Shown piece after piece: positions 282 through 24,927 of a stretch of 40,600 nt of DNA. The first letter of the stretch is position 1, and the number at the start of each line of letters is the position of its first letter. The notes beneath the pieces are model-generated. The model saw nothing but the letters and a program-made list of their open reading frames with translations, was not told the origin of the DNA and made no database searches. The DNA lies in contig MFUY01000002.1 of NCBI GenBank assembly GCA_001787035.1, positions 7,355 through 47,954 of the forward strand. The letters run 5' to 3'. The stretch comes from Candidatus Nomurabacteria bacterium RIFCSPLOWO2_01_FULL_41_12 (lineage in GTDB: Bacteria; Patescibacteriota; Minisyncoccia; Phycocordibacterales; UBA9973). The position numbers and the translations under genes are program-made.

Positions 282-674
282 TTAATTTTTGTGAATATCT
301 TCTTCTAAATGGGCTAGTTGCTTTTCCACTCTATTCAAAGTATCTTGGAGGTTTTTAATTTGAGTTTCTTCTGTTGCAACTTCTTCTTCCACTTTTTCAG
401 CCATTTTTTCTTCGCCAATCAAGCCGGAAATAATAAGCCGGCTCCCAATAAAAGCGGAGACAAATACTCCCGTGATAAGAAGTATTATGGTTCCTATAAT
501 TATTGAGGCCACAGAACTGACATTAATATCATCGGCCAAATGCCATATTCCGCGCCAAAATAATATTATTCCAATGCCCCCTATGAGCGCGTAAAGAATA
601 GGGTAGTGGCTTAGTTTACTCCTTACTCTGTCTTCCAACTTATCAAAAAATCGCTTTATCTTTTTCAACTTCAT
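282..674 (-). CDS. hypothetical small membrane protein with acidic coiled-coil-like C-terminus
   Basis: 130-aa ORF with two hydrophobic segments (PILYALIGGIGIILFW, IIIGTIILLITGVFVSAFIG) and an EEKMAEKVEEEV tail. TAA stop. No family recognised. Confidence 0.55.
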   Translation of the reverse strand: MKLKKIKRFFDKLEDRVRSKLSHYPILYALIGGIGIILFWRGIWHLADDINVSSVASIIIGTIILLITGVFVSAFIGSRLIISGLIGEEKMAEKVEEEVATEETQIKNLQDTLNRVEKQLAHLEEDIHKN

Positions 675-753
675 CCCAGTACTAAAATTTTAAATAATAA
701 TGTTTATCCTTATTTCCCGTAATCAAAATTAGGTGAAACCGTTACGGGACAAG
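675..753 (-). repeat. Family A leader element, copy A1 (abuts the ATG of the 282..674 gene)
   Basis: The reverse complement reads ACTTGTCCCGTAACGG...AAAATTTTAGTACTGGG followed by ATG. It shares the 5' box ACTTGTCCCGT and the 3' box AAAATTTTAGTACTGGGATG with copies at 4630, 27776 and 36197. Confidence 0.7.
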
Positions 754-790
754 TATTGCTTTATCATACACTAAGAGTAGAATTGTTTCC

Positions 791-1342
791 ATGCCTTGGG
801 ACGATAAAGAACTTATAGAGGTACTAAAAAATAATGGCGTCGTGGTAATGCCCACAGACACTTTATATGGAATTGTGGGTAGGGCGCAAAACCAGTCTGC
901 GGTAGAACGTATTTATAAAATACGAAAAAGAAACCCAGGAAAGCCTTGCATAATACTTATTGGAGACATAAATGAGTTAAAGAAATTTGGCATAATTCTA
1001 ACAGAAGCACAAAAAGATCAAATTAGAAGATATAGAGAACCCACAAGTTTTATTGTTGACTGCACTGATGAAAAATTTTCATATTTACATCGTGGCACAA
1101 AGACTTTAGCATTTCGCTTACCTACTTCAAAATCTCTAAGAAATTTTTTAATAAAAACCGGACCATTGATTGCGCCTTCCGCGAATATTGAGGGTTTGCT
1201 CCCGGCAAAGACTATTATTGAAGCACGCAATTACTTTGGCAGTCAAGTAGACCTATATATTGACGGCGGGGAAATTAGGAGTAAGGCTTCAAAAATTGAA
1301 AAATTGCATAAAGATGGCAAATTAAGTACAATTAGGGAATAA
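791..1342 (+). CDS. tsaC: L-threonylcarbamoyladenylate synthase (YrdC/TsaC family)
   Basis: 183 aa. YrdC-type motifs VVVMPTDTLYGIVGRA, KPCIILIG, LRLPT and PLIAPSAN. Confidence 0.8.
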   Translation: MPWDDKELIEVLKNNGVVVMPTDTLYGIVGRAQNQSAVERIYKIRKRNPGKPCIILIGDINELKKFGIILTEAQKDQIRRYREPTSFIVDCTDEKFSYLHRGTKTLAFRLPTSKSLRNFLIKTGPLIAPSANIEGLLPAKTIIEARNYFGSQVDLYIDGGEIRSKASKIEKLHKDGKLSTIRE

Positions 1343-1343
1343 T

Positions 1344-1874
1344 ATGATTCAAAACCACCTTTCATTTTTAAGATTACTTTTCGGTGAGAATGAAGAGCCG
1401 AGACGGAGGATATTCCGCAGTATCAAGGCCAAGGCTGATGCAAAAAGAACAGCAACAGAGCGGATTGCAGACTGGATGACTTCACGTTTTGGGAGCATAA
1501 CTTTTTTATCCCTAAATATACTGATGTTTATTTTATGGGTACTCATAAATACCAATCAAATACAGGGAATACCCCCCTTTGACCCTTTTCCTTTCAGTCT
1601 TCTTACCACCATTGTCTCTCTGGAAGCTATTATTCTTGCAATCTTCGTACTTATATCCCAAAATCGCAATTCAAAAGTAGATGACTTGCGGGAAGAAACT
1701 CACTTGCAAGTCAATCTTATTGCTGAAAAGGAAATTACTAAACTTATGAAAATGATGGCTATTCTTCTGGAAAAGCATGGGGTAGACTTGTCACAAGACC
1801 CCGAATTAAAAAAACTGCTCCGACCGATCAGTGAGGAAGAAATAGAAAAAAGATTGGAAAAAGAGATTCTGTAG
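1344..1874 (+). CDS. DUF1003 family membrane protein
   Basis: 176 aa. FGSITFLSLN..W...N, then FDPFPFSLLTTIVSLEAIILAIFVLISQNR is the typical DUF1003 core. Confidence 0.7.
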   Translation: MIQNHLSFLRLLFGENEEPRRRIFRSIKAKADAKRTATERIADWMTSRFGSITFLSLNILMFILWVLINTNQIQGIPPFDPFPFSLLTTIVSLEAIILAIFVLISQNRNSKVDDLREETHLQVNLIAEKEITKLMKMMAILLEKHGVDLSQDPELKKLLRPISEEEIEKRLEKEIL

Positions 1875-1875
1875 T

Positions 1876-2907
1876 ATGAAAATTCTAAAGAATTATGATT
1901 TGAAAAATTTAAATACTTTTGGTATACCCACCAAGGCCAAATTTTTTGTAGAAATTACGGGTGAAGGTGAACTAAATGAACTTTTTAAAGAGCCGTTATA
2001 TATAGGGCACGAAAAGCTTTTCTTAGGGGAAGGCAGCAATGTTTTATTTACCAAAGACTGGGGTGGCATAGTAGTCCTAAATAAAATAAAAGGCATAGAA
2101 ATTCTAGAAGAAGATTCCGAGAACATCCTAATAAAATCAATGAGCGGAGTAATCTGGCACGATTTAGTGTCTTTTGCGGTAGACCACGATTATTGGGGGA
2201 TTGAAAATTTGGCGCTTATCCCCGGTACAGTAGGGGCTGCGCCGATGCAAAACATCGGAGCTTACGGAGCGGAATTAAAAAATGTTCTCACTTTAGTTGA
2301 GGCTTATAATGTTAATACTGGAGAGAAGAGAATTTTCAGTAAAGAAGAGTGCATTTTTGGGTACAGAGACAGTATTTTTAAGAACTCGTTAAGAAATAAA
2401 TATTTCATATCTGCTATCACTTTAAGATTAAGCAAGACGGGAAAGCCCAACACGAGCTATAAAATTTTAAAAGAGCATTTGGAGAAAAATAAAATTGAAA
2501 TCAAAAACTCTAAAAACATAAGCGATGCTGTATCTGAAATCCGCCGGAGTAAGCTTCCCGACCCGAGGGTCATTGGAAATGCCGGAAGTTTTTTTAAGAA
2601 TGTCTTCGTGGATAAAGACAAGTTGGCAGAATTGCGCAGACTTTATCCAGCTATGCCATTTTTTGAAGAAGATGGTCTATCAAAAATTCCGTCTGCCTGG
2701 CTGATTGAACAATGTGGTCCTGCAAACGGGACAAGCTGGAAGGGATATAGAGTAGGCAATGTTGGAGTACATCATAAACAGGCGCTTGTTTTAGTCAATC
2801 ACGGAGACGGGCGGGGACAAGATATTAAAGATTTAGCTCTGCAAATCATTGCTTCAGTCAAAGAAAAATTTGGCTTAGAACTTGCCCCTGAAGTCAATTT
2901 GATTTAG
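1876..2907 (+). CDS. murB: UDP-N-acetylenolpyruvoylglucosamine reductase
   Basis: 343 aa. NLNTFGI, LGEGSNVLF, GAAPMQNIGAYG, GNAGSFFKN, PSAWLIEQCG. Confidence 0.9.
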   Translation: MKILKNYDLKNLNTFGIPTKAKFFVEITGEGELNELFKEPLYIGHEKLFLGEGSNVLFTKDWGGIVVLNKIKGIEILEEDSENILIKSMSGVIWHDLVSFAVDHDYWGIENLALIPGTVGAAPMQNIGAYGAELKNVLTLVEAYNVNTGEKRIFSKEECIFGYRDSIFKNSLRNKYFISAITLRLSKTGKPNTSYKILKEHLEKNKIEIKNSKNISDAVSEIRRSKLPDPRVIGNAGSFFKNVFVDKDKLAELRRLYPAMPFFEEDGLSKIPSAWLIEQCGPANGTSWKGYRVGNVGVHHKQALVLVNHGDGRGQDIKDLALQIIASVKEKFGLELAPEVNLI

Positions 2908-11676: not shown

Positions 11677-12567
11677 ATGCTTGAAGGAAATTTAGTTAAA
11701 ACTATCACTTCCGATGGCTTGGAGTTAGTCGGTTTTTGGGCCAACGCTAAAAGTGATATTGCTGTATTTCACTCTCACGGAACAGCCGGGGATTTCTACA
11801 CCCATAAATTTATAGAAGAAGAAGGAGAGAGATTGTCCCAAAAAGGTATTTCTTTTTTAACTGCCAACAATCGGGGGCATGATGTATATGCAGATATTAG
11901 AAAGCACAAAAACGGAAAGGTGAAATGGACCCAAATCGGTGGCGGGTTTGAAAAATTTGAAGATTGCCTTTTGGATATCGATGCTTGGGTTAAATTTTTA
12001 ATAAAAAATGGTGTCAAAAAAATTATTCTGCAAGGGCATAGTTTATCCCAAAAGATTTTATATTATCAGTATGCTAAGAAGAATCCAAAAGTAGTTGGAC
12101 AAATTCATTTATCACCGCAAAACGACGATGGCCTAATGTTCTTTTCTTTGGGTGCAAAGAAGTATAAAGAAATAAATAAAAAGATTAGAAAAATGATTAA
12201 AAACGGTAAGGCAAATGAGATACTTTCCAAAGATCTTTCTCCAGTCAGTTACACCACTTCGGCTCAGATGTACTCTGGTTATTTAACTGATTACGGAGTT
12301 GGAACTTTAACCCCTTATCATAATCCTAAATCAAAAAACTGGCAGATATTAGAGAAAACGAGAAACCCTCTTTTGGTTATTTTTGGTGGCAAAGATGCTT
12401 ACATTAAACCATCTCCAAAAATTGCGGCCAAACTTATAAGAGAAAAAGCAAAATTAGCCAAATCACTCGAGGTTAAAGTTATTAAAAGTGCTACCCATAG
12501 TTATATTGGCTATGAAAAAGAGTTGGTAAAAATTATTACCAATTGGATTAAAGAAAATTTTCTTTAG
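11677..12567 (+). CDS. alpha/beta-fold hydrolase
   Basis: 296 aa. Nucleophile elbow GHSLS, HG oxyanion region (FHSHGTAGD), C-terminal ATHSY. Confidence 0.65.
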   Translation: MLEGNLVKTITSDGLELVGFWANAKSDIAVFHSHGTAGDFYTHKFIEEEGERLSQKGISFLTANNRGHDVYADIRKHKNGKVKWTQIGGGFEKFEDCLLDIDAWVKFLIKNGVKKIILQGHSLSQKILYYQYAKKNPKVVGQIHLSPQNDDGLMFFSLGAKKYKEINKKIRKMIKNGKANEILSKDLSPVSYTTSAQMYSGYLTDYGVGTLTPYHNPKSKNWQILEKTRNPLLVIFGGKDAYIKPSPKIAAKLIREKAKLAKSLEVKVIKSATHSYIGYEKELVKIITNWIKENFL

Positions 12568-12572
12568 AGTTT

Positions 12573-12821
12573 TTATGCTTTTATCAAGCCAGCCTTAAGT
12601 AGAGTGGCATAGGCGCCCCGCTTTTTCATTGTGCGCATGCCTTGGACGGAGACTTCTATATTTACAAATTTGTTGATTTCAGGAATAAAAACCCTCTTCT
12701 TTTGAAGATTTAAGTATTTTCGGACTTTGCCGGTTGGATTGAATTTAGTGGCACGAGTCCTGTTGGAATACCCGCCACCTACAAGTGAACCCTTTTTTGT
12801 TATCGCGCATGTTTTCGCCAT
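12573..12821 (-). CDS. rpmB: 50S ribosomal protein L28
   Basis: 82 aa. MAKTCAITKKGSLVGGGYSNRTRATKFNP... Confidence 0.85.
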   Translation of the reverse strand: MAKTCAITKKGSLVGGGYSNRTRATKFNPTGKVRKYLNLQKKRVFIPEINKFVNIEVSVQGMRTMKKRGAYATLLKAGLIKA

Positions 12822-14487: not shown

Positions 14488-16635
14488 ATGGAACGGGATT
14501 ATCCTCTGGAAAAAGTCAGGAATATTGGAATTATTGCGCACATTGATGCGGGTAAGACGACCACGACCGAGCGCGTGCTTTTTTATACCGGTGTGTCGCA
14601 TAAAATCGGCGAAGTGCATGAAGGGGATACCACTACTGACTGGATGGAGCAGGAGCGGGAGCGCGGTATTACCATTACCTCTGCCGCGGTCACTTGTTTT
14701 TGGACTCCGACTTACGCAGGGACTGATAAAACTAAAAAACACCGCTTCAACATTATTGATACTCCTGGGCACATTGATTTTACCGTAGAAGTGAAGCGAT
14801 CTCTTCGTGTTTTAGACGGTGCTGTCGTCGTCTTTGACGGTGTGGCTGGAGTAGAGCCTCAGTCTGAAACAAATTGGCGTTATGCGGATGAAGCAAAGGT
14901 TCCCCGTATTTGTTTTATAAACAAACTGGACCGAACAGGCGCTTCTTTTGAGCATTCATATGAGACTATTTTAGACAGATTAAGTAAAAAAGCTGTGCGT
15001 GTGCAGATTCCTATCGGGCTCGAAGAAAAGTTTGAGGGGGTTGTTGATATTCTTCGTATGAAGGCCTATTACTTTGAAGGAGAAATGGGTAATCAGGTAA
15101 GGGAAGCAGAAATTCCGGAAAATTTAAAAGCTGATGCGGAAAAATATCATAGTGAACTGGTTGAGAAAATAGTTGAGACCGATGAAGTTATGATGACGGA
15201 ATATCTGGAAGGAATGATTCCTAATTTTGACACGCTGAAAAAAACTCTTCGCAAGGCGGTTATTGGGAATAATATTTTCCCGGTATTTGCTGGGAGCGCA
15301 TTAAAGAATAAAGGTATCCAGCTGGTCTTGGACGCCGTGGTGGACTATTTGCCCTCACCGCTTGATATTCCGCCTGTCTCCGGTATTGACCCAAATACGG
15401 AAGAGGTTATTACAAGAGGCGCTTCCGACGAAGAGCCTTTTTCCGCGCTTGCTTTCAAAGTCGCGACTGACCCTTTCGTCGGCCAGCTTATTTTCTTCCG
15501 CGTTTACGCCGGAACTTTATCCGCTGGTAGCTATGTCTACAATCCGCGCACGCGCAATAAAGAGCGCATTGGCCGAATTTTACGGATGCATGCCAATGAC
15601 AGGGAAGAAGTAAAAAAAGTTTTTGCCGGAGAAATAGCGGCTGCGGTAGGACTCAAGGATACCATCACGTCAGACACTATTTGTGATGAGGATAAGCCTA
15701 TCATTCTGGATCGCATTGTATTTCCTGAACCGGTTATTTCGCTTCGTATTGAGCCCAAGACAAAAGCCGACCAAGAAAAAATGGGCATGGCCCTTAATCG
15801 CCTGGCACAGGAGGACCCAACTTTTAAAGTTTCAACCGACCAAGAGACAGGCGAGACCATCATTGCCGGCATGGGAGAATTGCACTTGGAAATTATCGTA
15901 GATAGAATGAAGCGTGAGTTTACTGTGGAAGCGAATGTCGGCAAACCGCAAGTGGCTTATCGAGAAACAATCAATGGCACTAGTGAAGCTGAAGGAAAAT
16001 ATATCAAGCAGTCGGGCGGACGCGGAAACTACGGACATGTGAAGATAAAAGTGAAGCCGATGGAGGCGCTTAGCAAAGAAGAATTAGAAGATTTGCCGAA
16101 GAATACCAAGCGCTCTCCGGGTTTTGAATTTATAAATAGCATCAAAGGAGGAGTGATTCCGCAGGAATACATCGCGCCTTGCGAGAAAGGATTTAAAGAA
16201 GGGTTGGAACGCGGAATCGTGGCTGGGTTTAAAATGGTTAATGTTTCAGTAGAGCTTTGGGACGGGTCTTACCATGAAGTTGACTCTAATGAAATGGCTT
16301 TTAAAATCGCCGCGAGTATGGCAGTGCAGGATGCGTGCAAAAGGGCGAATCCAGTAATCCTAGAGCCGATGATGAAAGTGGAAGTTGTTACTCCGGATAA
16401 ATTCATGGGTGATGTAACGGGCAATCTCTCTTCCAAGCGGGCTCTGATTGAAGGGATGGAAGACCGCGGAATGAATAAAGTTATCCGCGCTATTGTGCCT
16501 CTTTCGGAGATGTTCGGCTACATGACCGGCTTGCGTTCCATGACCGAAGGCCGCGCCAGCTTTACTATGGAATTCTTCCGCTACGACATCGTGCCGAACA
16601 ATGTGGCTGAGACCATTATTGCAACTAGGAAATAG
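14488..16635 (+). CDS. fusA: translation elongation factor G
   Basis: 715 aa. [25 protein letters not shown], and the C-terminal [31 protein letters not shown]. Confidence 0.95.
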
Positions 16636-17289: not shown

Positions 17290-17965
17290 AAGAATTTTTC
17301 TATACCTGGCCTTGCCTTTAATTGTTCTGGCCCTCTATTTCGGCATAATTTATTTGTTTAGATATTTAGGGTTTCCTTCTCCGGAAGAAATAATTGCTTT
17401 CACTCAAAGATACTACGAAACCTACGGATACTCTGTGGTTTTAGTCGGCGCTATAGCGGAAGGTGCGCTCTTAATCAATTGGTATTTGCCGGGTTCTATC
17501 GTGGTGGCTTTGGGAGTTATCTTTGCCAAGCAAGCGGGACTGAATGTTTTCTTAATGTTAGGCTTGGTGATTCTGGGCTTTTTTCTGACTGCTCTCTTGA
17601 ACTATGCTTTAGGACGTTTTGGCTGGTATCATGTGTTTTTAAAATTAGGATTACAAATGCCGCTTGAAAAAATGCAGTCAAAAGTGGCGGACAAAGGTTT
17701 GAAGATATTATTTACCACTTATGTTCACCCTAACTTTGGAGCTTTAGCTGCTACTGCGGCCGGTATTTTACGCCTGCCTTTTTTTAAATTTTTTCTTTAT
17801 TCTTTAATTTCAATAACCATTTGGAATAGCTTATGGACTATTTTGTTTTATTATTTTGGTTCATTTCTTGTCCACTATGTAAACCTTCTCGTTATAGCAG
17901 GAGGGATATTCGTCTATTTTGTGCTGATGAAAAGCTTTAAAGAATCAAAAGTTAACATCCCCTAA
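17255..17965 (+). CDS. DedA/VTT-domain family membrane protein
   Basis: 236 aa. YGYSVVLVGAIAEGALLINWYLPGS and multiple TM segments. The 5' end overlaps the fusA relic in another frame. Confidence 0.75.
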   Translation: MLPRQLLPPENKRIFLYLALPLIVLALYFGIIYLFRYLGFPSPEEIIAFTQRYYETYGYSVVLVGAIAEGALLINWYLPGSIVVALGVIFAKQAGLNVFLMLGLVILGFFLTALLNYALGRFGWYHVFLKLGLQMPLEKMQSKVADKGLKILFTTYVHPNFGALAATAAGILRLPFFKFFLYSLISITIWNSLWTILFYYFGSFLVHYVNLLVIAGGIFVYFVLMKSFKESKVNIP

Positions 17966-18005
17966 GAGGTTTCTGTTTTCTGTTTTTTTTGATAGTATAC
18001 TAGCA

Positions 18006-19097
18006 ATGCTTCAGACCCCATTTTACAACCCGGAGAAATCTTATGAGGAAAATTTTCAAAAAGGCCCTTTTGGTGCCTTCGCGCAAGGCTTCGGCAACCC
18101 AAAGGGGGCTGATTCGGAAGTCATAAAAGATGAAGGCGAGCCCAAATATGATTTTCTTGGCTTCAAAGTAAACTCGCCTTTCGGTATTGCTGCCGGACCG
18201 CTTATAAATGGGAATTTTGTGCAGGCGGCACTCGATAAAGGTTTTGATATTGTCACTTATAAAACTGTCCGCACTAGAGAGTATCCATGTCATCCATGGC
18301 CGAATGTTTTGTCAGTGGAAGTGCCTGGAGACTTAACTTTAGAGAAGGCTGAAGAGGGAGTTGTGGCGAACGAAAATTATTCTGAACCGCTTTCCATTAC
18401 CAATTCTTTCGGCGTGCCCTCCTTTCCGCCTGAATTCTGGCAGGAAGATATAAAAAAAGTGGTAAAAAATTTACGCAAGGGGCAGATTCTCGTCGGCGCT
18501 TTCCAGAGAACAAAAAAAGAAATACCGGATGTGGAAGAATATATAAAAGATTTTGCCAGAGCAGCCAGACTAATGAAGGAAACTGGGGTGAATGTGATGG
18601 AAGTAAATTTCTCTTGTCCCAATGAAGGCACTGCAGAGCTTCTTTGTTATGACGTAGAGCGCAGCGCCGAAGTTTTGAAAGCGATCAAAGATGAAATTAA
18701 AAATATTCCTTTGATTGTAAAAATTTCTTATTTTAAAGACGAAGAATTGCTTCGCCATTTTGTAAAAAAGGTTGGTTCTTTAGTGCAAGGTGTTTCTGCT
18801 ATTAATACTATTTTTTCAAAAATAGTGGACGAGAAGGGAGGCGAAGCGCTTCCCGGACGGACGCATAGCGGAGTTTGCGGTCATGCCATAAAATGGGCAG
18901 GACTGGATATGGTGAAAAGATTAAAAAAGTTGCGTGAAGAGTTAGGATATTCATATACTATCATCGGCGTCGGGGGAGTGATGAATGCGAATGATTTTTT
19001 GGAGTACCGAAATGCCGGTGCAGACGTCGTGATGTCGGCGACCGGCGCGATGTGGAACCCGTATCTTGCAAGAGACATAAAAGAAAGGTTAAGATAA
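18006..19097 (+). CDS. pyrD: dihydroorotate dehydrogenase family protein
   Basis: 363 aa. FGIAAGPL, NFSCPN, GVGGV. Followed by pyrE and pyrF. Confidence 0.75.
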   Translation: MLQTPFYNPEKSYEENFQKGPFGAFAQGFGNPKGADSEVIKDEGEPKYDFLGFKVNSPFGIAAGPLINGNFVQAALDKGFDIVTYKTVRTREYPCHPWPNVLSVEVPGDLTLEKAEEGVVANENYSEPLSITNSFGVPSFPPEFWQEDIKKVVKNLRKGQILVGAFQRTKKEIPDVEEYIKDFARAARLMKETGVNVMEVNFSCPNEGTAELLCYDVERSAEVLKAIKDEIKNIPLIVKISYFKDEELLRHFVKKVGSLVQGVSAINTIFSKIVDEKGGEALPGRTHSGVCGHAIKWAGLDMVKRLKKLREELGYSYTIIGVGGVMNANDFLEYRNAGADVVMSATGAMWNPYLARDIKERLR

Positions 19098-19103
19098 AAT
19101 TAT

Positions 19104-19751
19104 ATGAATGAATCGAACCAAGAAGTTGTGGATATACTTAAGAAAACAAATGCAGTAGTTACCAATAGTCATTTCGTTTATGTTTCTGGGAAGCATGCTC
19201 CGGAATATGTTAACAAGGATTATGTTTATCCGCACACCGCACAAATTTCCCGGATTGCGGAAATAATTGCGGAAAAATACAAAGACCTACCAGTTGATGT
19301 CATAGTTGGACCATCTATCGGTGGTATTATACTTTCTCAATGGACGGCGCATCATCTATCGCTTTTGAAAGGTAAAGAAATTTTAAGTGTTTTTACAGAA
19401 AAGCAACCCAATAAAGATCAAATTTTTATGAGATATTACGGGCAATACGTAAAAGGCAGAAATGTTTTAGTTGTTGAAGATGTAGTAACTACAGGGGGCT
19501 CTGTGAAAAAAGTTATAAATAGTGTTCTGAAAGAAGGCGGTAAAGTTTTAGCCGCCTGCGCGATAGTAAACAAAGACCCCAAAAATATAAATCCGGATTT
19601 TATCGGTGTGCCTTTTGACTATTTGGCAATTATTGGTATGGATGTTTGGGATGAAAAAGATTGTCCGTTATGTAAAGAGGGTGTGCCAATAAATCTTCAG
19701 TTGGGATATGGTAACCAATTTTTGGAGCAACATAAAGATTATCCAAGATGA
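19104..19751 (+). CDS. pyrE: orotate phosphoribosyltransferase
   Basis: 215 aa. PRPP-binding loop VLVVEDVVTTGGS. The TGA stop overlaps the pyrF ATG. Confidence 0.8.
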   Translation: MNESNQEVVDILKKTNAVVTNSHFVYVSGKHAPEYVNKDYVYPHTAQISRIAEIIAEKYKDLPVDVIVGPSIGGIILSQWTAHHLSLLKGKEILSVFTEKQPNKDQIFMRYYGQYVKGRNVLVVEDVVTTGGSVKKVINSVLKEGGKVLAACAIVNKDPKNINPDFIGVPFDYLAIIGMDVWDEKDCPLCKEGVPINLQLGYGNQFLEQHKDYPR

Positions 19752-20563
19752 TAATTGATAAATACAACAAAAGAGCAAAAAAAATAAATTCGCTTCTTTG
19801 TGTAGGTTTGGATACTGACTTTTCTAAAATTCCCAAGCGTTTTTTGAGAAAAAAATTTCCTCAATTTGAATTTAATAAATGGATTATAGAAGAGACGCAC
19901 GAATTTGTCGTGGCTTATAAGCCAAATAGCGCATTTTATGAAGCGCGGGGTGATAAGGGAATGAAAGAATTAAAAATGACAATGGATTATTTGATTAAAA
20001 ATTATCCGGATGTTTTTACAATATTAGATGCCAAACGCGCAGACATTGGTAATACGAATAATGGCTATGTGTCGGCTATTTTTGACTGGCTTAATTTTGA
20101 TGCTGTAACTCTTCATCCATATTTAGGGAAAGAAGCATTAAAGCCGTTTCTAGACAGGAAAAATAAAGGTTGCATTATTCTTTGCCGGACTTCAAACAAA
20201 GGAGCCGAAGAGTTTCAGGATTTAGAGTTTTCGCAAGGACGGTCCTTGCGAAAACTTTGGCAGATTGTGGCGGAGAGAGTGAGTAAAAATTGGGATAAAA
20301 ATAAAAATTGCATGCTTGTCGTCGGTGCGACTTATCCAAAAGAAATGAAAAAAATCCGCGCGCTGGTCGGCGACATGACTTTTCTTGTGCCCGGTATCGG
20401 TGCGCAGGGTGGAGATTTGAAAGCTGTAATAAAAGCCGGCTTAAACAAAAAAGGCCTCGGTCTCATTATTAATTCTTCTCGGGGAATTATTTTTGCCAAA
20501 AATCCCAAAGAAGGGGCACAAAAACTTAGGGATGAAATTAGGACATATAAGAATATTTCCTAA
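19748..20563 (+). CDS. pyrF: orotidine 5'-phosphate decarboxylase (type 2)
   Basis: 271 aa. LCVGLDTD, ILDAKRADIGNT, LVPGIGAQGG. Confidence 0.85.
   Translation: MIIDKYNKRAKKINSLLCVGLDTDFSKIPKRFLRKKFPQFEFNKWIIEETHEFVVAYKPNSAFYEARGDKGMKELKMTMDYLIKNYPDVFTILDAKRADIGNTNNGYVSAIFDWLNFDAVTLHPYLGKEALKPFLDRKNKGCIILCRTSNKGAEEFQDLEFSQGRSLRKLWQIVAERVSKNWDKNKNCMLVVGATYPKEMKKIRALVGDMTFLVPGIGAQGGDLKAVIKAGLNKKGLGLIINSSRGIIFAKNPKEGAQKLRDEIRTYKNIS
20226..20256. repeat. Family D palindrome, copy D1, inside the pyrF coding sequence
   Basis: Perfect 31-nt palindrome AGTTTTCGCAAGGAC-G-GTCCTTGCGAAAACT, encoding FSQGRSLRKL. The core AAGGAC-S-GTCCTT recurs at 21908, 26121/26145, 27333 and 39978/40004. Confidence 0.7.
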
Positions 20564-20564
20564 T

Positions 20565-20592
20565 TTGACAACATTTTTTAATCTGCTAATAT
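20565..20592 (+). promoter_or_regulatory. near-consensus sigma70-like promoter upstream of tuf
   Basis: TTGACA (20565-20570), 16-nt spacer, TAATAT (20587-20592). Confidence 0.55.
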
Positions 20593-20598
20593 AACAAT

Positions 20599-20625
20599 AA
20601 CTGCACTTTTGGCAGTTTTTGTTTG
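20599..20625 (+). promoter_or_regulatory. 5'-leader hairpin plus U-tract in the tuf leader
   Basis: AACTGC-ACTTTTG-GCAGTT followed by TTTTGTTTG. Confidence 0.4.
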
Positions 20626-20709
20626 CCCAATTATTAATAATATCGTTAGTAATTAAGCCTTAGCAGCTATTCCTGTATGTTAAGTCTTAACTATTAGCAC
20701 AATAAATAT

Positions 20710-21903
20710 ATGGCAGAAGAATTTAAAAGAGACAGGCCGCACATAAATGTCGGCACCATTGGTCACGTTGACCATGGTAAGACTACCTTAACAGCTTCCA
20801 TCCTGCATGTTTTGAATATGGCCGGAAAGCAGGTTAGGCTTCGAGGTGTTGATCAGATCGACAATGCTCCGGAAGAAAAAGCTCGAGGAATTACTATTAA
20901 TATTTCTCACAACGAGTATTCAACCGATGCCCGCCACTATGCGCACATCGATGCTCCAGGACACGCGGACTATATTAAAAACATGATTACCGGCGCAGCT
21001 CAGATGGACGGCGCTATCCTTGTGGTTGCGGCTACTGACGGCGCGATGCCTCAAACTCGCGAACACGTTTTGCTTGCTAAGCAAGTCGGCGTGCCTAAAA
21101 TGATTGTTTTCTTAAACAAGTGCGACATGGTTGACGATAAAGACATGATTGACCTGGTGGAAGAAGAAATTCGCGAGCTCCTAACCAAACAAGGTTTTGA
21201 CGGCGCTGGCGCTCCGGTTATTCGCGGTTCAGCCCTTAAAGCTCTTGAATCAAAGTCCGTTGACGATGAATGGGCGAAAAAAATTCTTGAACTCGTCAAT
21301 GCTCTAGATACCTATATTCCAATCCCAGAGAGAGACATTTCCAAGCCTTTTCTTATGCCGGTTGAAGACATCTTCTCTATTGAAGGACGAGGAACAGTTG
21401 TGACCGGAAAAATTGAAAGAGGGGTAGTGAAAGTCGGCGAAGATGTGGAAATTGTCTGAATTAAACCTACCCAAAAATCAACGGTTACCGGTATTGAAAT
21501 GTTCAATAAAAATCTACAAGAAGGTATGGCTGGAGACAACGCCGGTATTCTGCTTCGGGGCTTAAAGAAAGAAGACATTACCCGTGGGCAAGTTCTTTGC
21601 AAACCGGGCACAACTACTCCACACGACAACTTTACCGCTGAAATATATGTTTTAAAAAAAGAAGAAGGCGGACGTCACACTCCTTTCTTTAAAGGCTATA
21701 AGCCCCAGTTTTATATCCGAACGACGGATGTCACAGGTGATGTAGCTCTTGCTGAAGGGACAGAAATGGTTATGCCTGGAGATACGGTAAAGATTACAGT
21801 TAAATTAGTCACTCCGGTTGCATTAGAGGAAGCGCAGAGATTTGCTATTCGTGAAGGAGGCAAGACTGTCGGCGCAGGGGTGGTTACAAAGATTCTTGGT
21901 TAA
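20710..21903 (+). CDS. tuf: translation elongation factor Tu, one reading frame interrupted by a single in-frame TGA (21457-21459)
   Basis: Track ORFs 20710..21459 and 21499..21903 are in the same frame. Read through, the junction gives GEDVEIV-[TGA][15 protein letters not shown], which matches the conserved EF-Tu [33 protein letters not shown] and NKCD are present. Confidence 0.85.
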
Positions 21904-21907
21904 AATC

Positions 21908-21942
21908 AAGAACGGTCCTTAGGGAAGTTGAGACCGTCCTTT
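21908..21942. repeat. Family D composite hairpin, copy D2 (tuf-rpsJ spacer)
   Basis: AAGAACGGTCCTT-AGGGAAGTTG-AGACCGTCCTTT. Same layout as 39978-40018. Confidence 0.65.
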
Positions 21943-21951
21943 AAAAGCACA

Positions 21952-22416
21952 ATGACAACAACAGAGACAAAAACAAAAAAGCCTAAAATGCTCAAAACTC
22001 CGGCAGTTAAAGTTGCCAAAATACCTAAATTAAAAGTCTCTAAAATTAGTCTTAAAAAAGGTAAATCTTCGCCTTCTCTACGGGCAGGTCGTCCAACTTC
22101 CGGGGATGGCAAAGTAGTGCTTCGCATACGTGTGCGAGCGTATGAAAATAAAATTCTTGATAGCTCAGTCAAGCAGATTATGGATACTGCTGTCCGTTAC
22201 GATGCAGTCATCGTCGGGCCGGTGCCTCTGCCTACTGAAATTAAGAAATACACGGTTAATCGTTCCCCTTTTATTTACAAAAATACGCGGGAGCAATTTG
22301 AGATTCGAGTGCATAAAAGATTAATTGATATTGTAAATCCAAACGCAAAAACCATCGAGGCTCTGACTAATTTATCGCTTCCTTCGGGGGTAGATATTGA
22401 CGTCAAGATGTTATGA
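21952..22416 (+). CDS. rpsJ: 30S ribosomal protein S10 with Lys-rich N-terminal extension
   Basis: First ATG in frame at 21952. The core LRIRVRAYENKILDSSVKQIMDTAVRYDAVIVGPVPLPT is S10. It is preceded by about 55 Lys/Thr/Pro-rich residues. The TGA stop overlaps the rplC ATG. Confidence 0.85.
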   Translation: MTTTETKTKKPKMLKTPAVKVAKIPKLKVSKISLKKGKSSPSLRAGRPTSGDGKVVLRIRVRAYENKILDSSVKQIMDTAVRYDAVIVGPVPLPTEIKKYTVNRSPFIYKNTREQFEIRVHKRLIDIVNPNAKTIEALTNLSLPSGVDIDVKML

Positions 22417-22967
22417 AATTTATTTTAGGAACAAAAGAAAACATGACGGAGTATTTCGAGGAAGATGGAAAAGTAATTCCAGTTACTTCGCTCTATGCTG
22501 GTCCGGTGACAGTAAGTCGGATTTTTCGGAAAGAAAAAGATGGCTATAATGCCGTCCAAGTAGATTTTGCTTCAAAGAAAAAAGAATTTAGGCTTAAGCC
22601 AGAAGATACGATAGACCTCAAAGAGGGAGACACTATTGACGTTTCAGTTTTTGCTCCGGGCGACAATCTTATTGTTTCAAGCGTATCCAAAGGTAAAGGT
22701 TTCCAAGGCGTGGTCAAGCGCCATGGGTTCTCTGGCGGCCCGCGCACCCACGGTCAGAAACATTCGGAAAGAGAGGCAGGCTCAATCGGCGGAGGACTTC
22801 GAACTCATGTTCCTCGCGGCATGAGAATGGCGGGCAGGATGGGGGGAGATAGAATAACCCAGAAAAATTTAAAAGTTGTTTTTGTAGATAAAGAAAATAA
22901 TATAATGCTGGTGAAGGGAGCGATAGCCGGAAAGCGCGGGAGCTTGGTTGAGATTGTAAGCAGATAG
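22413..22967 (+). CDS. rplC: 50S ribosomal protein L3
   Basis: 184 aa. ILGTKENMTEYF, GKGFQGVVKRHGFSGGPRTHG. Confidence 0.9.
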   Translation: MKFILGTKENMTEYFEEDGKVIPVTSLYAGPVTVSRIFRKEKDGYNAVQVDFASKKKEFRLKPEDTIDLKEGDTIDVSVFAPGDNLIVSSVSKGKGFQGVVKRHGFSGGPRTHGQKHSEREAGSIGGGLRTHVPRGMRMAGRMGGDRITQKNLKVVFVDKENNIMLVKGAIAGKRGSLVEIVSR

Positions 22968-22989
22968 TAGTAAATAGTTAGTAAGAATT

Positions 22990-23661
22990 ATGGAAGCAAA
23001 AATACAAGCAAAAATTTATGACCAAAAAGGTGTCTCGGCGGGGGCAGTATTTCTTCCAGCGAAAGTTTTTGCCGCTAAGTGGAGGAGCGACCTAGTGCAT
23101 CAAGTTGTGGAAGGAATGCGCAGCAATAAGCGCGCAGGCACAGCTGATACTAAGGACAGGGGAGAAGTCCGCGGTGGAGGCAGAAAGCCCTGGAAACAAA
23201 AGGGGACAGGGCGGGCACGTCACGGGTCTTCCAGGAGCCCTATCTGGGTGGGCGGAGGCGTAACCCACGGCCCGCTGGCGGAGAAAAATTATAAAAGAAA
23301 AATCTCAAAAAAAATGCGGGCGCAGGCGCTTTTCTCCGTTTTGTCTAGAAAATTAAAAGACGGGGAGATTATTTTTATAGATTCTCTTGTAATGTCTGGG
23401 ATCAGCACTAAAAACGGAGTAGAAGTGATAAAAAATTTAGCCAAAGCTATAGGAGCCAAAAATATTACAACTGCAAAGAAACCCAAAATGCTCATGGCTC
23501 TGTATGAACGTAATGTTAAAACAGAAAAGAGCTTCAGAAATATATCGGCACTTGAGATAGTTTTTCTAAAAAATCTAAATCCTCTTGATGTATTAAATTA
23601 CCAATACCTTTTAATAGAAAATCCGGTCGAGAGCGTAAAATTTTTAGAATCTCGTGGCTAG
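22990..23661 (+). CDS. rplD: 50S ribosomal protein L4
   Basis: 223 aa. RGGGRKPWKQKGTGRARHGSSRSPIWVGGGVTHGP. Confidence 0.9.
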   Translation: MEAKIQAKIYDQKGVSAGAVFLPAKVFAAKWRSDLVHQVVEGMRSNKRAGTADTKDRGEVRGGGRKPWKQKGTGRARHGSSRSPIWVGGGVTHGPLAEKNYKRKISKKMRAQALFSVLSRKLKDGEIIFIDSLVMSGISTKNGVEVIKNLAKAIGAKNITTAKKPKMLMALYERNVKTEKSFRNISALEIVFLKNLNPLDVLNYQYLLIENPVESVKFLESRG

Positions 23662-23780
23662 TGAAACTTTTTAAAATATGCTTTTTCCGGTACGGATTTT
23701 CCGAAGCTTGAAAAATCCTGAAATTCTCGGCTCGTCAGCCTCGAAACCCCTCCAAAAGCATATTTTAAAAAGTTTCACTA
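23659..23780. repeat. 122-bp element with perfect 27-bp terminal inverted repeats (rplD-rplW spacer)
   Basis: TAGTGAAACTTTTTAAAATATGCTTTT (23659-23685) is the exact reverse complement of 23754-23780. The 68-nt core contains an internal GGATTTT/AAAATCC hairpin. The left arm includes the rplD TAG stop. Confidence 0.8.
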
Positions 23781-23787
23781 AAACAAA

Positions 23788-24057
23788 ATGACAAAAATAA
23801 TTAAAAACCCAAGAGTGACCGAAAAAGCCTCATTTGCGCAAGAGCAAAATGTTTACTCTTTTGATGTTGTTTCAGGGGCGAATAAGACAGAAATAAAAAA
23901 GGCTATTTTTGCGCTCTATAAAGTGCATCCGGTAAAAGTGAATGTTTTACCTATACCAAGGAAAAATATTATGTCCAAAGGACGTTTGGGAGTCAAAGGC
24001 GGAGGCCGAAAGGCGTTGGTGTATTTAAAGGTAGGTGATAAAATAGAATTTATTTAA
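23788..24057 (+). CDS. rplW: 50S ribosomal protein L23
   Basis: 89 aa. PRVTEKASFAQEQNVYSFDV, NKTEIKKAI. Confidence 0.9.
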   Translation: MTKIIKNPRVTEKASFAQEQNVYSFDVVSGANKTEIKKAIFALYKVHPVKVNVLPIPRKNIMSKGRLGVKGGGRKALVYLKVGDKIEFI

Positions 24058-24058
24058 A

Positions 24059-24898
24059 ATGAAAAGCTACAAACCGACAAGTAAATCAAGACGTCAGATG
24101 ACTAATGTATCATACAGGGGTGTTTTGACAGCGACCGCTCCCACTAAGTCTTTGACTTATGGTTTCAAGAGATCAGTAGGGCGTAACAGCCAAGGCAGGA
24201 TTACCATGAGACATAAAGGCGGAGGGCATAAGCGTCTTTTCCGGGATGTTGACTTTGTTTATAATAAAAAAGAAATTCCCGCGAAGATTAAATCTGTGGA
24301 ATACGACCCGAACCGTTCGGCCTTCATTGGCTTAGCTGTCTATAAAGATGGAGAAAAAAGATATGTCGTATTGCCGAAAGGAGTAAAAATGGGGGATTCT
24401 TTTATCGTATCCGAAAAGGCGCCCCTCTCGGCGGGAAATCGTTTGCCACTTCGTAATATTCCGGTTGGAACTTTTGTTTACAATATTGAAATCAAACCTA
24501 GGGGCGGTGCTAAGATCGGTCGCTCAGCGGGAATTTTTGCCCAAGTGGTGGCGAATGCCGACGGATATACGAACATCAAAATGCCTTCAACGGAAATCAG
24601 AAAAATAAATGAAGAGTGTTGGGCCTCTATAGGCGCGGTTTCAAACGAAGAGCATCATCTGGAGAATTACGGTAAAGCGGGGCGTAGCCGTTGGAAAGGA
24701 ATACGCCCGACGGTTCGCGGCACAGCAATGAACCCAGTAGACCATCCATACGGAGGCGGAGAGGGCAGACAAGGGCGCGGAACCAAACGCCCGAAAACAA
24801 TGTGGGGCAAGGTTACCGGCGGGCGCAAAACCCGCGGTCCGAAGAAATACTCAAATGTGTTTATCGTGTCTAGGCGCAAGACTGGGAAGAATAAATAA
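24059..24898 (+). CDS. rplB: 50S ribosomal protein L2
   Basis: 279 aa. RHKGGGHKR, GTAMNPVDHPYGGGEG. Confidence 0.95.
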   Translation: MKSYKPTSKSRRQMTNVSYRGVLTATAPTKSLTYGFKRSVGRNSQGRITMRHKGGGHKRLFRDVDFVYNKKEIPAKIKSVEYDPNRSAFIGLAVYKDGEKRYVVLPKGVKMGDSFIVSEKAPLSAGNRLPLRNIPVGTFVYNIEIKPRGGAKIGRSAGIFAQVVANADGYTNIKMPSTEIRKINEECWASIGAVSNEEHHLENYGKAGRSRWKGIRPTVRGTAMNPVDHPYGGGEGRQGRGTKRPKTMWGKVTGGRKTRGPKKYSNVFIVSRRKTGKNK

Positions 24899-24927
24899 AA
24901 AAATCCTCCACTATGGAGGATTTTTTT
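24899..24927 (+). terminator. strong rho-independent terminator immediately after rplB, inside the S10 cluster
   Basis: AAAAATCCTCCA-CTA-TGGAGGATTTTT (12-bp stem) with a T7 run. The A run upstream makes it potentially bidirectional. Confidence 0.75.

What the first reader, a model, noticed from the sequence alone, without database searches (positions are those of the whole stretch)
21457..21459. Single in-frame TGA at an invariant glycine codon of tuf
The two tuf ORFs in the track are one frame. GAA ATT GTC TGA ATT AAA reads VEIV-stop-IK, where EF-Tu universally has VEIVG(I/L)K. A one-base change, GGA to TGA, explains it.

Everything else in tuf is intact, including a strong promoter, and no second tuf is in the window.

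Options:
(a) A sequencing or consensus error.
(b) A real nonsense allele tolerated through another tuf copy.
(c) Site-specific UGA read-through or decoding as Gly.

Option (c) is intriguing because UGA=Gly is exactly the reassignment used by the related SR1/Absconditabacteria and Gracilibacteria lineages (code 25, established). However, this window otherwise uses TGA as a stop (thyA-like, pyrE, rpsJ, rpmC, the 16670 ORF) and shows no other in-frame TGA. I see no SECIS-like hairpin downstream.
Basis: partly seen in the sequence, partly recalled or inferred. Interest (0 to 1): 0.6.

Follow-up and report, generated by a model that had tools for sequence, protein, structure and literature searches.

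The report
Lone stop codon in tuf: assembly-private base
The stop codon inside the only EF-Tu gene is a one-base difference seen in this assembly alone (seven near-identical public assemblies read the normal glycine codon), so it is most likely a base error or a dead-end variant, not a change in the genetic code.

Summary
TGA lies in frame at window 21457-21459, at the invariant Gly250 codon of the genome's only tuf, and the rest of the gene is intact.

The recoding idea (UGA read as Gly, or read-through) fails every test I could run:
- Seven near-identical public assemblies of the same population (98.9-99.97% identical) read GGA. Position 21457 is the only site in the 7.2-kb comparison where the window differs from all of them.
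- All 29 relatives aligned have GGT, GGA or GGG.
- The genome encodes RF2 with the SPF motif.
- No tRNA with anticodon UCA, no SelA and no SECIS-like element was found.
- TGA ends 16 of 142 genes exactly at the conserved C-terminus.
- No other in-frame TGA occurs in 113,412 aligned conserved residues.

The same assembly has two more single-base nonsense codons, both TAA, in essential single-copy genes: frr (AAA elsewhere) and grpE (TAT elsewhere). Code 25 cannot explain TAA.

Isolated single-assembly variants in this population look close to unselected (12 non-synonymous, 9 synonymous, 3 intergenic, 3 nonsense). Another assembly carries its own nonsense codon in rplD.

Most likely this is a consensus or base error, or a rare non-viable allele picked up by the assembler. 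Interest is low.

The parts
20710..21903 (+). tuf (EF-Tu), 397 codons plus TAA stop; one frame, interrupted once
   Evidence: TIGR00485 687 bits; PDB EF-Tu E about 1e-187
21457..21459 (+). in-frame TGA at codon 250. The T at 21457 is private to this assembly; all other assemblies read GGA (Gly).
20565..20592 (+). sigma-70-like promoter upstream of tuf: TTGACA, 16 nt, TAATAT, with TG
   Evidence: a consensus match only
20710..21456 (+). N-terminal fragment under table 11 (249 aa: GTPase domain and the start of domain 2)
   Evidence: this exact fragment is not in the public protein collection
21460..21903 (+). codons 251-397 downstream of the stop; the same protein sequence as the intact copies in the seven near-identical assemblies, and base-for-base identical to six of them, so no decay

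Best explanation
The TGA is a single G-to-T difference that exists only in this assembly. The organism's real tuf reads GGA (Gly250) and is translated by the standard code. The T is most likely a base or consensus error of this scaffolded metagenome-assembled genome, or a rare non-viable variant that the assembler happened to follow. It is one of a handful of scattered, apparently unselected single-base differences in the assembly. At least two others also create stop codons (TAA) in essential single-copy genes, frr and grpE.

Shown: the site is private, the other assemblies carry the intact allele, the termination machinery is standard, and TGA is used as a terminator.

Inferred: that the cause is an error rather than a real minor allele. 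Reads could not be inspected.
For: 1. The exact 397-aa EF-Tu with Gly250 is in the public collection, and the truncated fragments are not. Seven public contigs from seven samples encode it under table 11: ENA ERZ27254861, ERZ28563625, ERZ4903137, ERZ27254865, ERZ4903072, NCBI GCA_001785285.1 and JGI 3300025317. The six first fetched are 98.9-99.97% identical to window 17710-24903, and all seven have G at 21457. In that 7.2-kb comparison 21457 is the only site where the window differs from every compared assembly. Over 21 kb the only other isolated private site is a synonymous one at 15322.
2. 38 relatives, 22 of them in the same genus, have one intact tuf each. All 29 aligned have a GGN Gly codon at this position.
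3. Standard termination: RF2 (best NCBIfam hit TIGR00020, 354.9 bits, SPF motif) and RF1 (PAT motif) are both present. TGA is the stop exactly at the conserved C-terminus in 16 of 142 orthologue pairs and ends 94 of 675 long ORFs.
4. None of the 34 tRNAs has anticodon UCA. A 100%-complete genome of the same genus has tRNA-Trp CCA and no UCA.
5. Census against that congener: 376 alignments and 113,412 residues show no other mid-gene TGA. They do show two mid-gene TAA codons, in frr (C3:10184) and grpE (C5:30121). Other assemblies read AAA and TAT there.
6. Isolated single-assembly variants over 61.6 kb: 12 non-synonymous, 9 synonymous, 3 intergenic, 3 nonsense. This is close to unselected. This genome has 5, a number similar to other assemblies, and ERZ4903137 has its own nonsense codon in rplD.
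Against: The frr TAA allele of this genome is also carried by an independent JGI contig (3300025317, starting 39 nt upstream). At least one of the assembly's nonsense alleles is therefore reproducible and may be a real segregating variant.

Two or three nonsense codons among about six private sites is more than the roughly 5% expected for random substitutions. The sites were found by looking for stops, and the numbers are too small to test this.
Confidence: 0.85

Rival explanations
1. It is a real nonsense allele present in the sampled population. It could be a minor, recent or dead-end lineage, or one genome copy of a polyploid cell, which the assembler followed instead of the GGA allele. The truncated product would be non-functional, and cells would rely on intact copies elsewhere in the population or in the same cell.
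For: The frr TAA allele of this assembly recurs in an independent JGI 3300025317 contig. Other assemblies of the same population carry their own single-assembly nonsense codons, for example rplD GAA to TAA in ERZ4903137. Codons 251-397 downstream of the stop match the intact alleles, as expected for a very young mutation.
Against: tuf is single-copy and essential, and no second tuf was found. The T at 21457 is absent from all seven other assemblies, including JGI 3300025317, the sample that shares the frr allele. Three essential genes broken in one 666-kb genome cannot describe a viable clone.
Confidence: 0.12
2. UGA at this site is decoded as glycine, either genome-wide as in genetic code 25 or by site-specific read-through, so full-length EF-Tu is made from this sequence.
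For: The stop sits exactly at an invariant Gly column. UGA is read as Gly in Absconditabacteria and Gracilibacteria, which are also CPR lineages (PMC8629427). The rest of the gene is intact.
Against: RF2 with the SPF motif is present. No tRNA-UCA was found here or in a complete congener. TGA terminates 16 of 142 genes at conserved ends. There is no other in-frame TGA in 113,412 conserved residues. Near-identical assemblies read GGA. The other in-frame stops of the assembly are TAA. The stop is followed by A (UGA-A), which from general knowledge is not a leaky context. No downstream structure was found.
Confidence: 0.02
3. The UGA encodes selenocysteine.
For: None beyond the presence of an in-frame UGA.
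Against: The column is Gly, never Cys or Sec, in all 29 relatives aligned. No SelA, no tRNA-Sec, and no SECIS-like fold or Rfam hit were found.
Confidence: 0.005

Closest known systems
Single-base consensus errors or rare variants in metagenome-assembled genomes that yield 'internal stop' pseudogene calls
   Same: One substitution, private to one assembly, in an otherwise perfect essential gene. Sibling assemblies are intact. Other scattered private substitutions, including further nonsense codons, occur in the same assembly.
   Different: One of the sister nonsense alleles (frr) is reproduced in an independent assembly. This hints that some of these variants exist in reads and are not pure assembler artefacts.
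Genetic code 25 (UGA = Gly) of Absconditabacteria/SR1 and Gracilibacteria
   Same: An in-frame UGA at a conserved glycine column, in a CPR bacterium.
   Different: Here RF2 is present, no tRNA-Gly(UCA) was found, TGA is a regular terminator, and this is the only in-frame TGA. PMC8629427 uses these same criteria to decide that UGA is a stop.
Programmed UGA recoding (selenocysteine insertion or stop-codon read-through)
   Same: A single in-frame UGA in an otherwise intact gene.
   Different: No SECIS, no Sec machinery, no conservation of the UGA in any relative or sibling assembly, and no downstream structure.

Membership tests
EF-Tu (TIGR00485, tuf) | Full-length match above the curated cut-off, with GTP_EFTU, D2 and D3 domains | tested here: met
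   687.3 bits against a cut-off of 522.4 when TGA is read as Gly. PF00009, PF03144 and PF03143 are recorded for the identical public protein.
Genetic code 25 (UGA = Gly) | A tRNA-Gly with anticodon UCA | tested here: not met
   None of the 34 tRNAs has anticodon UCA (the genome is 91% complete and tRNA-Trp is also unassembled). The 100%-complete congener G007 has tRNA-Trp CCA and no UCA.
Genetic code 25 (UGA = Gly) | Loss of release factor 2 | tested here: not met
   prfB at G000:C14:1932-2819 has the SPF motif and its best hit is TIGR00020 at 354.9 bits. That is just under the 370 cut-off because the N-terminus is short.
Genetic code 25 (UGA = Gly) | Many in-frame UGA codons at conserved Gly columns across genes | tested here: not met
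   Only the tuf site was found in 376 alignments covering 113,412 residues against a congener.
Genetic code 25 (UGA = Gly) | UGA not used as a terminator | tested here: not met
   TGA is the stop at 16 of 142 conserved C-termini and ends 94 of 675 long ORFs.
Selenoprotein recoding | A SECIS hairpin downstream of the UGA, plus SelA, SelB and tRNA-Sec | tested here: not met
   The fold is no better than shuffles (z = +1.0). No Rfam hit, no SelA and no tRNA-Sec were found. SelB was not searched separately.
Decaying pseudogene | Further defects or relaxed constraint in the gene | tested here: not met
   Apart from 21457 the gene matches the intact alleles of the sibling assemblies.

The most novel reading that the evidence does not exclude
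The tuf TGA, like the frr TAA that recurs in an independent JGI contig, is a real nonsense allele segregating in a natural Nomurabacteria population. Under this reading, carriers of nonsense alleles in essential translation genes persist through polyploid heterozygosity or unusually high stop-codon read-through.
Probability: 0.05. Interest if true: 0.6.

Novelty: not a real feature. Interest (0 to 1): 0.08.

Why it matters
Mainly as a caution. A lone in-frame UGA at a glycine column in a CPR genome looks like code 25, but here it is a base private to one assembly.

Anyone using this species-representative genome should expect tuf, frr and grpE to be called as pseudogenes for this reason. That could distort marker-gene sets, completeness estimates and genetic-code predictors.

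If the nonsense alleles proved real in reads, they would raise a small population-genetic question about deleterious load or ploidy in CPR bacteria.

Tried and rejected
- Exact-pattern scans for either allele (K at the site) in metagenome contigs and genome contigs returned nothing, not even the GGA allele known to exist there. Records near the window's genome are left out of those scans, so the result is uninformative.
- The first stop census with all ORFs of the congener was swamped by conserved antisense and off-frame ORFs. It was redone with non-overlapping longest ORFs.
- Three apparent frameshifts (C7, C24, C17) turned out to be N-runs in the scaffolds.
- I looked for the RF2 programmed-frameshift site CUU UGA C as extra evidence that UGA is a stop. 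There is none; this RF2 is a short form with its own start.
- I tested whether nonsense is enriched among private sites. With 5-6 sites that were found by looking for stops, no conclusion is possible.
It was then located on C11 through PF02518 and not pursued.

Full report
**Observation.** The window reads GAA ATT GTC TGA ATT AAA at 21448-21465. The table-11 ORFs 20710-21459 (249 aa) and 21499-21903 (134 aa) share one frame. Read through with TGA as Gly, 20710-21903 gives a 397-residue protein, P0001. It scores 687 bits on TIGR00485 EF-Tu (cut-off 522) and aligns end to end with solved EF-Tu structures, with residue 250 falling on the Gly of VEIVG(I/L). A TTGACA-16-TAATAT site with TG lies at 20565-20592.

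**Genome context.** The window is G000:C2:7355-47954 of a 666-kb, 31-contig, 91%-complete assembly at about 40% GC, with many short N-runs typical of a scaffolded metagenome bin. Earlier notes of this scan name it Nomurabacteria, a CPR lineage; I did not test that name. tblastn finds only one tuf in the genome.

**Is UGA a sense codon here? No.**
- Two class-I release factors are present. C14:1932-2819 carries the SPF motif and hits TIGR00020 (prfB) best, at 354.9 bits against 226 for RF1. This is slightly under the curated cut-off because its N-terminus is short. C17 carries PAT and hits RF1.
- ARAGORN finds 34 tRNAs, none with anticodon UCA and no tRNA-Sec. tRNA-Trp is also missing from this incomplete bin, so I checked a 100%-complete genome of the same genus, G007. 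It has 37 tRNAs with Trp-CCA and no UCA.
- Among orthologue pairs whose alignment reaches the last residue of the G007 protein, the next codon in G000 is TAA in 98, TAG in 28 and TGA in 16. These include rpsJ just downstream of tuf.
- 94 of 675 long ORFs end in TGA.
- No SelA was found. There is no Rfam hit around the site, and the 100 nt around the stop fold no better than shuffles (z = +1.0).
- PMC8629427 uses these same criteria, a tRNA-UCA and the presence or absence of RF2, to decide whether UGA is reassigned.

**Relatives.** In 38 relatives, 22 of them from the same genus, tuf is a single intact gene with no internal stop. Only G000 shows '1 TGA'. In all 29 loci aligned, the codon is GGT, GGA or GGG.

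**Same population, other assemblies.**
- The exact 397-aa protein with Gly250 is in the public collection, and the two truncated fragments are not.
- Seven public contigs from seven samples encode it under table 11: ENA ERZ27254861, ERZ28563625 (an ANAN16 scaffold), ERZ4903137, ERZ27254865, ERZ4903072, NCBI GCA_001785285.1 and JGI 3300025317.
- The six first fetched are 98.9-99.97% identical to window 17710-24903, and all read GTC GGA ATT. All seven have G at 21457.
- Position 21457 is the only site in that 7.2-kb stretch where the window differs from every compared assembly.
- Over 21.2 kb (window 10725-31942), the sites private to the window are a tight cluster of 18 differences at 12540-12621 (a strain-variable patch), one synonymous CTG/TTG site in fusA at 15322, and 21457.

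**Is the assembly otherwise clean? No.**
- I compared the non-overlapping long ORFs of G007 (about 636 kb fetched) with G000 by tblastn: 376 alignments and 113,412 residues. Stops near gene starts and in spurious frames were discounted. Three mid-gene stops in well-conserved context remain:
  - tuf, TGA;
  - grpE, TAA at C5:30121 (GVEYI*GQMN);
  - frr, TAA at C3:10184 (KDVEA*EKEGKI).
- The three apparent frameshifts are N-runs.
- I fetched near-identical contigs through neighbouring genes. They show full-length frr (183 aa) and grpE (211 aa) elsewhere, with AAA (Lys) in seven assemblies and TAT (Tyr) in six at the two sites. In several comparisons the stop-creating base is the only difference over about 5 kb.
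- There is one exception. A JGI 3300025317 contig that starts 39 nt upstream of the frr site carries the same TAA. The upstream contig of that sample ends in a different strain haplotype. That allele therefore seems to exist in reads of at least one further data set, at a spot where strains differ.

**How unusual are private sites?**
- Over 61.6 kb covered by G000 plus at least four other samples, isolated single-assembly variants number 27: 12 non-synonymous, 9 synonymous, 3 intergenic and 3 nonsense.
- G000 has five: the tuf TGA, the grpE TAA, V/F at C17:32176, R/L at C7:10743 and the synonymous fusA site. ERZ4903137 has eight, including its own nonsense in rplD (GAA to TAA at window 23617, codon 210 of 224; its L4 product is 209 instead of 223 aa).
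- Single-assembly variants in this population are thus close to unselected and are not peculiar to G000. That is what errors or very rare deleterious variants look like.
- The share of nonsense among G000's private sites is high. The sites were found by looking for stops, and the counts are too small to test this.

**Conclusion.** The organism's tuf reads GGA. The TGA is a base private to this assembly. Recoding is excluded as far as sequence analysis can go:
- the termination machinery is standard;
- TGA works as a terminator;
- there is no decoding tRNA;
- the UGA is not conserved in siblings or relatives;
- the two other in-frame stops of the same assembly are TAA.

A tolerated nonsense allele backed by a second tuf is not supported either, because no second tuf was found. 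What I cannot decide without reads is whether the T is a consensus error or a real but non-fixed allele. The frr case keeps the real-allele reading alive at about 10%.

**Comparison with known systems.** This resembles the familiar 'internal stop' artefacts of draft metagenome bins. It is not a member of the code-25 group: four defining features were tested and none was met. It is not a selenoprotein. It is not a decaying pseudogene, because there are no further defects. Novelty: not a real biological feature. Interest is low, apart from the caution for users of this representative genome.

Noticed in passing
G000:C3:10182-10184 (minus strand; outside the window): frr (ribosome recycling factor) has an in-frame TAA at codon 141 of 183. 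Seven near-identical assemblies read AAA (Lys). One JGI 3300025317 contig that starts 39 nt upstream carries the same TAA.
   Followed up: yes
G000:C5:30121-30123 (minus strand; outside the window): grpE has an in-frame TAA at codon 130 of 211. Six near-identical assemblies read TAT (Tyr).
   Followed up: yes
window 23617 (rplD, 22990-23661): Another public assembly of the same population (ENA ERZ4903137) has its own nonsense codon here (GAA to TAA, codon 210 of 224), which shortens L4 to 209 aa. The window itself is intact.
   Followed up: partly
window 12540-12621: A tight cluster of 18 differences between the window and all near-identical assemblies within about 80 nt, at the 3' end of the hydrolase-like ORF 11677-12567 and just downstream. 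It looks like a strain-variable or recombined patch.
   Followed up: no
G000:C14:1932-2819: RF2 is a short form (294 aa, with little of the usual N-terminal domain), has its own promoter-like TGcTATAAT, and lacks the CUU UGA C programmed frameshift site.
   Followed up: partly
G000:C29:3706-3780 and C31:2673-2747; also in congener G007: tRNA-Ile genes with anticodon UAU (ARAGORN 'tat'), two copies in G000. This hints at AUA decoding without a lysidine tRNA.
   Followed up: no
G000:C11:about 510-2490 (minus strand): A histidine-kinase locus reads as a TM sensor, a 92-aa piece and a kinase core in one frame, separated by TAA and by TAA-TAA. I did not check sibling assemblies.
   Followed up: partly
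G000:C7:6895-6909, C24:20758-20778, C17:5654-5673: Short N-runs inside genes shift the frame and mimic frameshifts. The window itself begins right after such a run (C2:7315-7354).
   Followed up: yes
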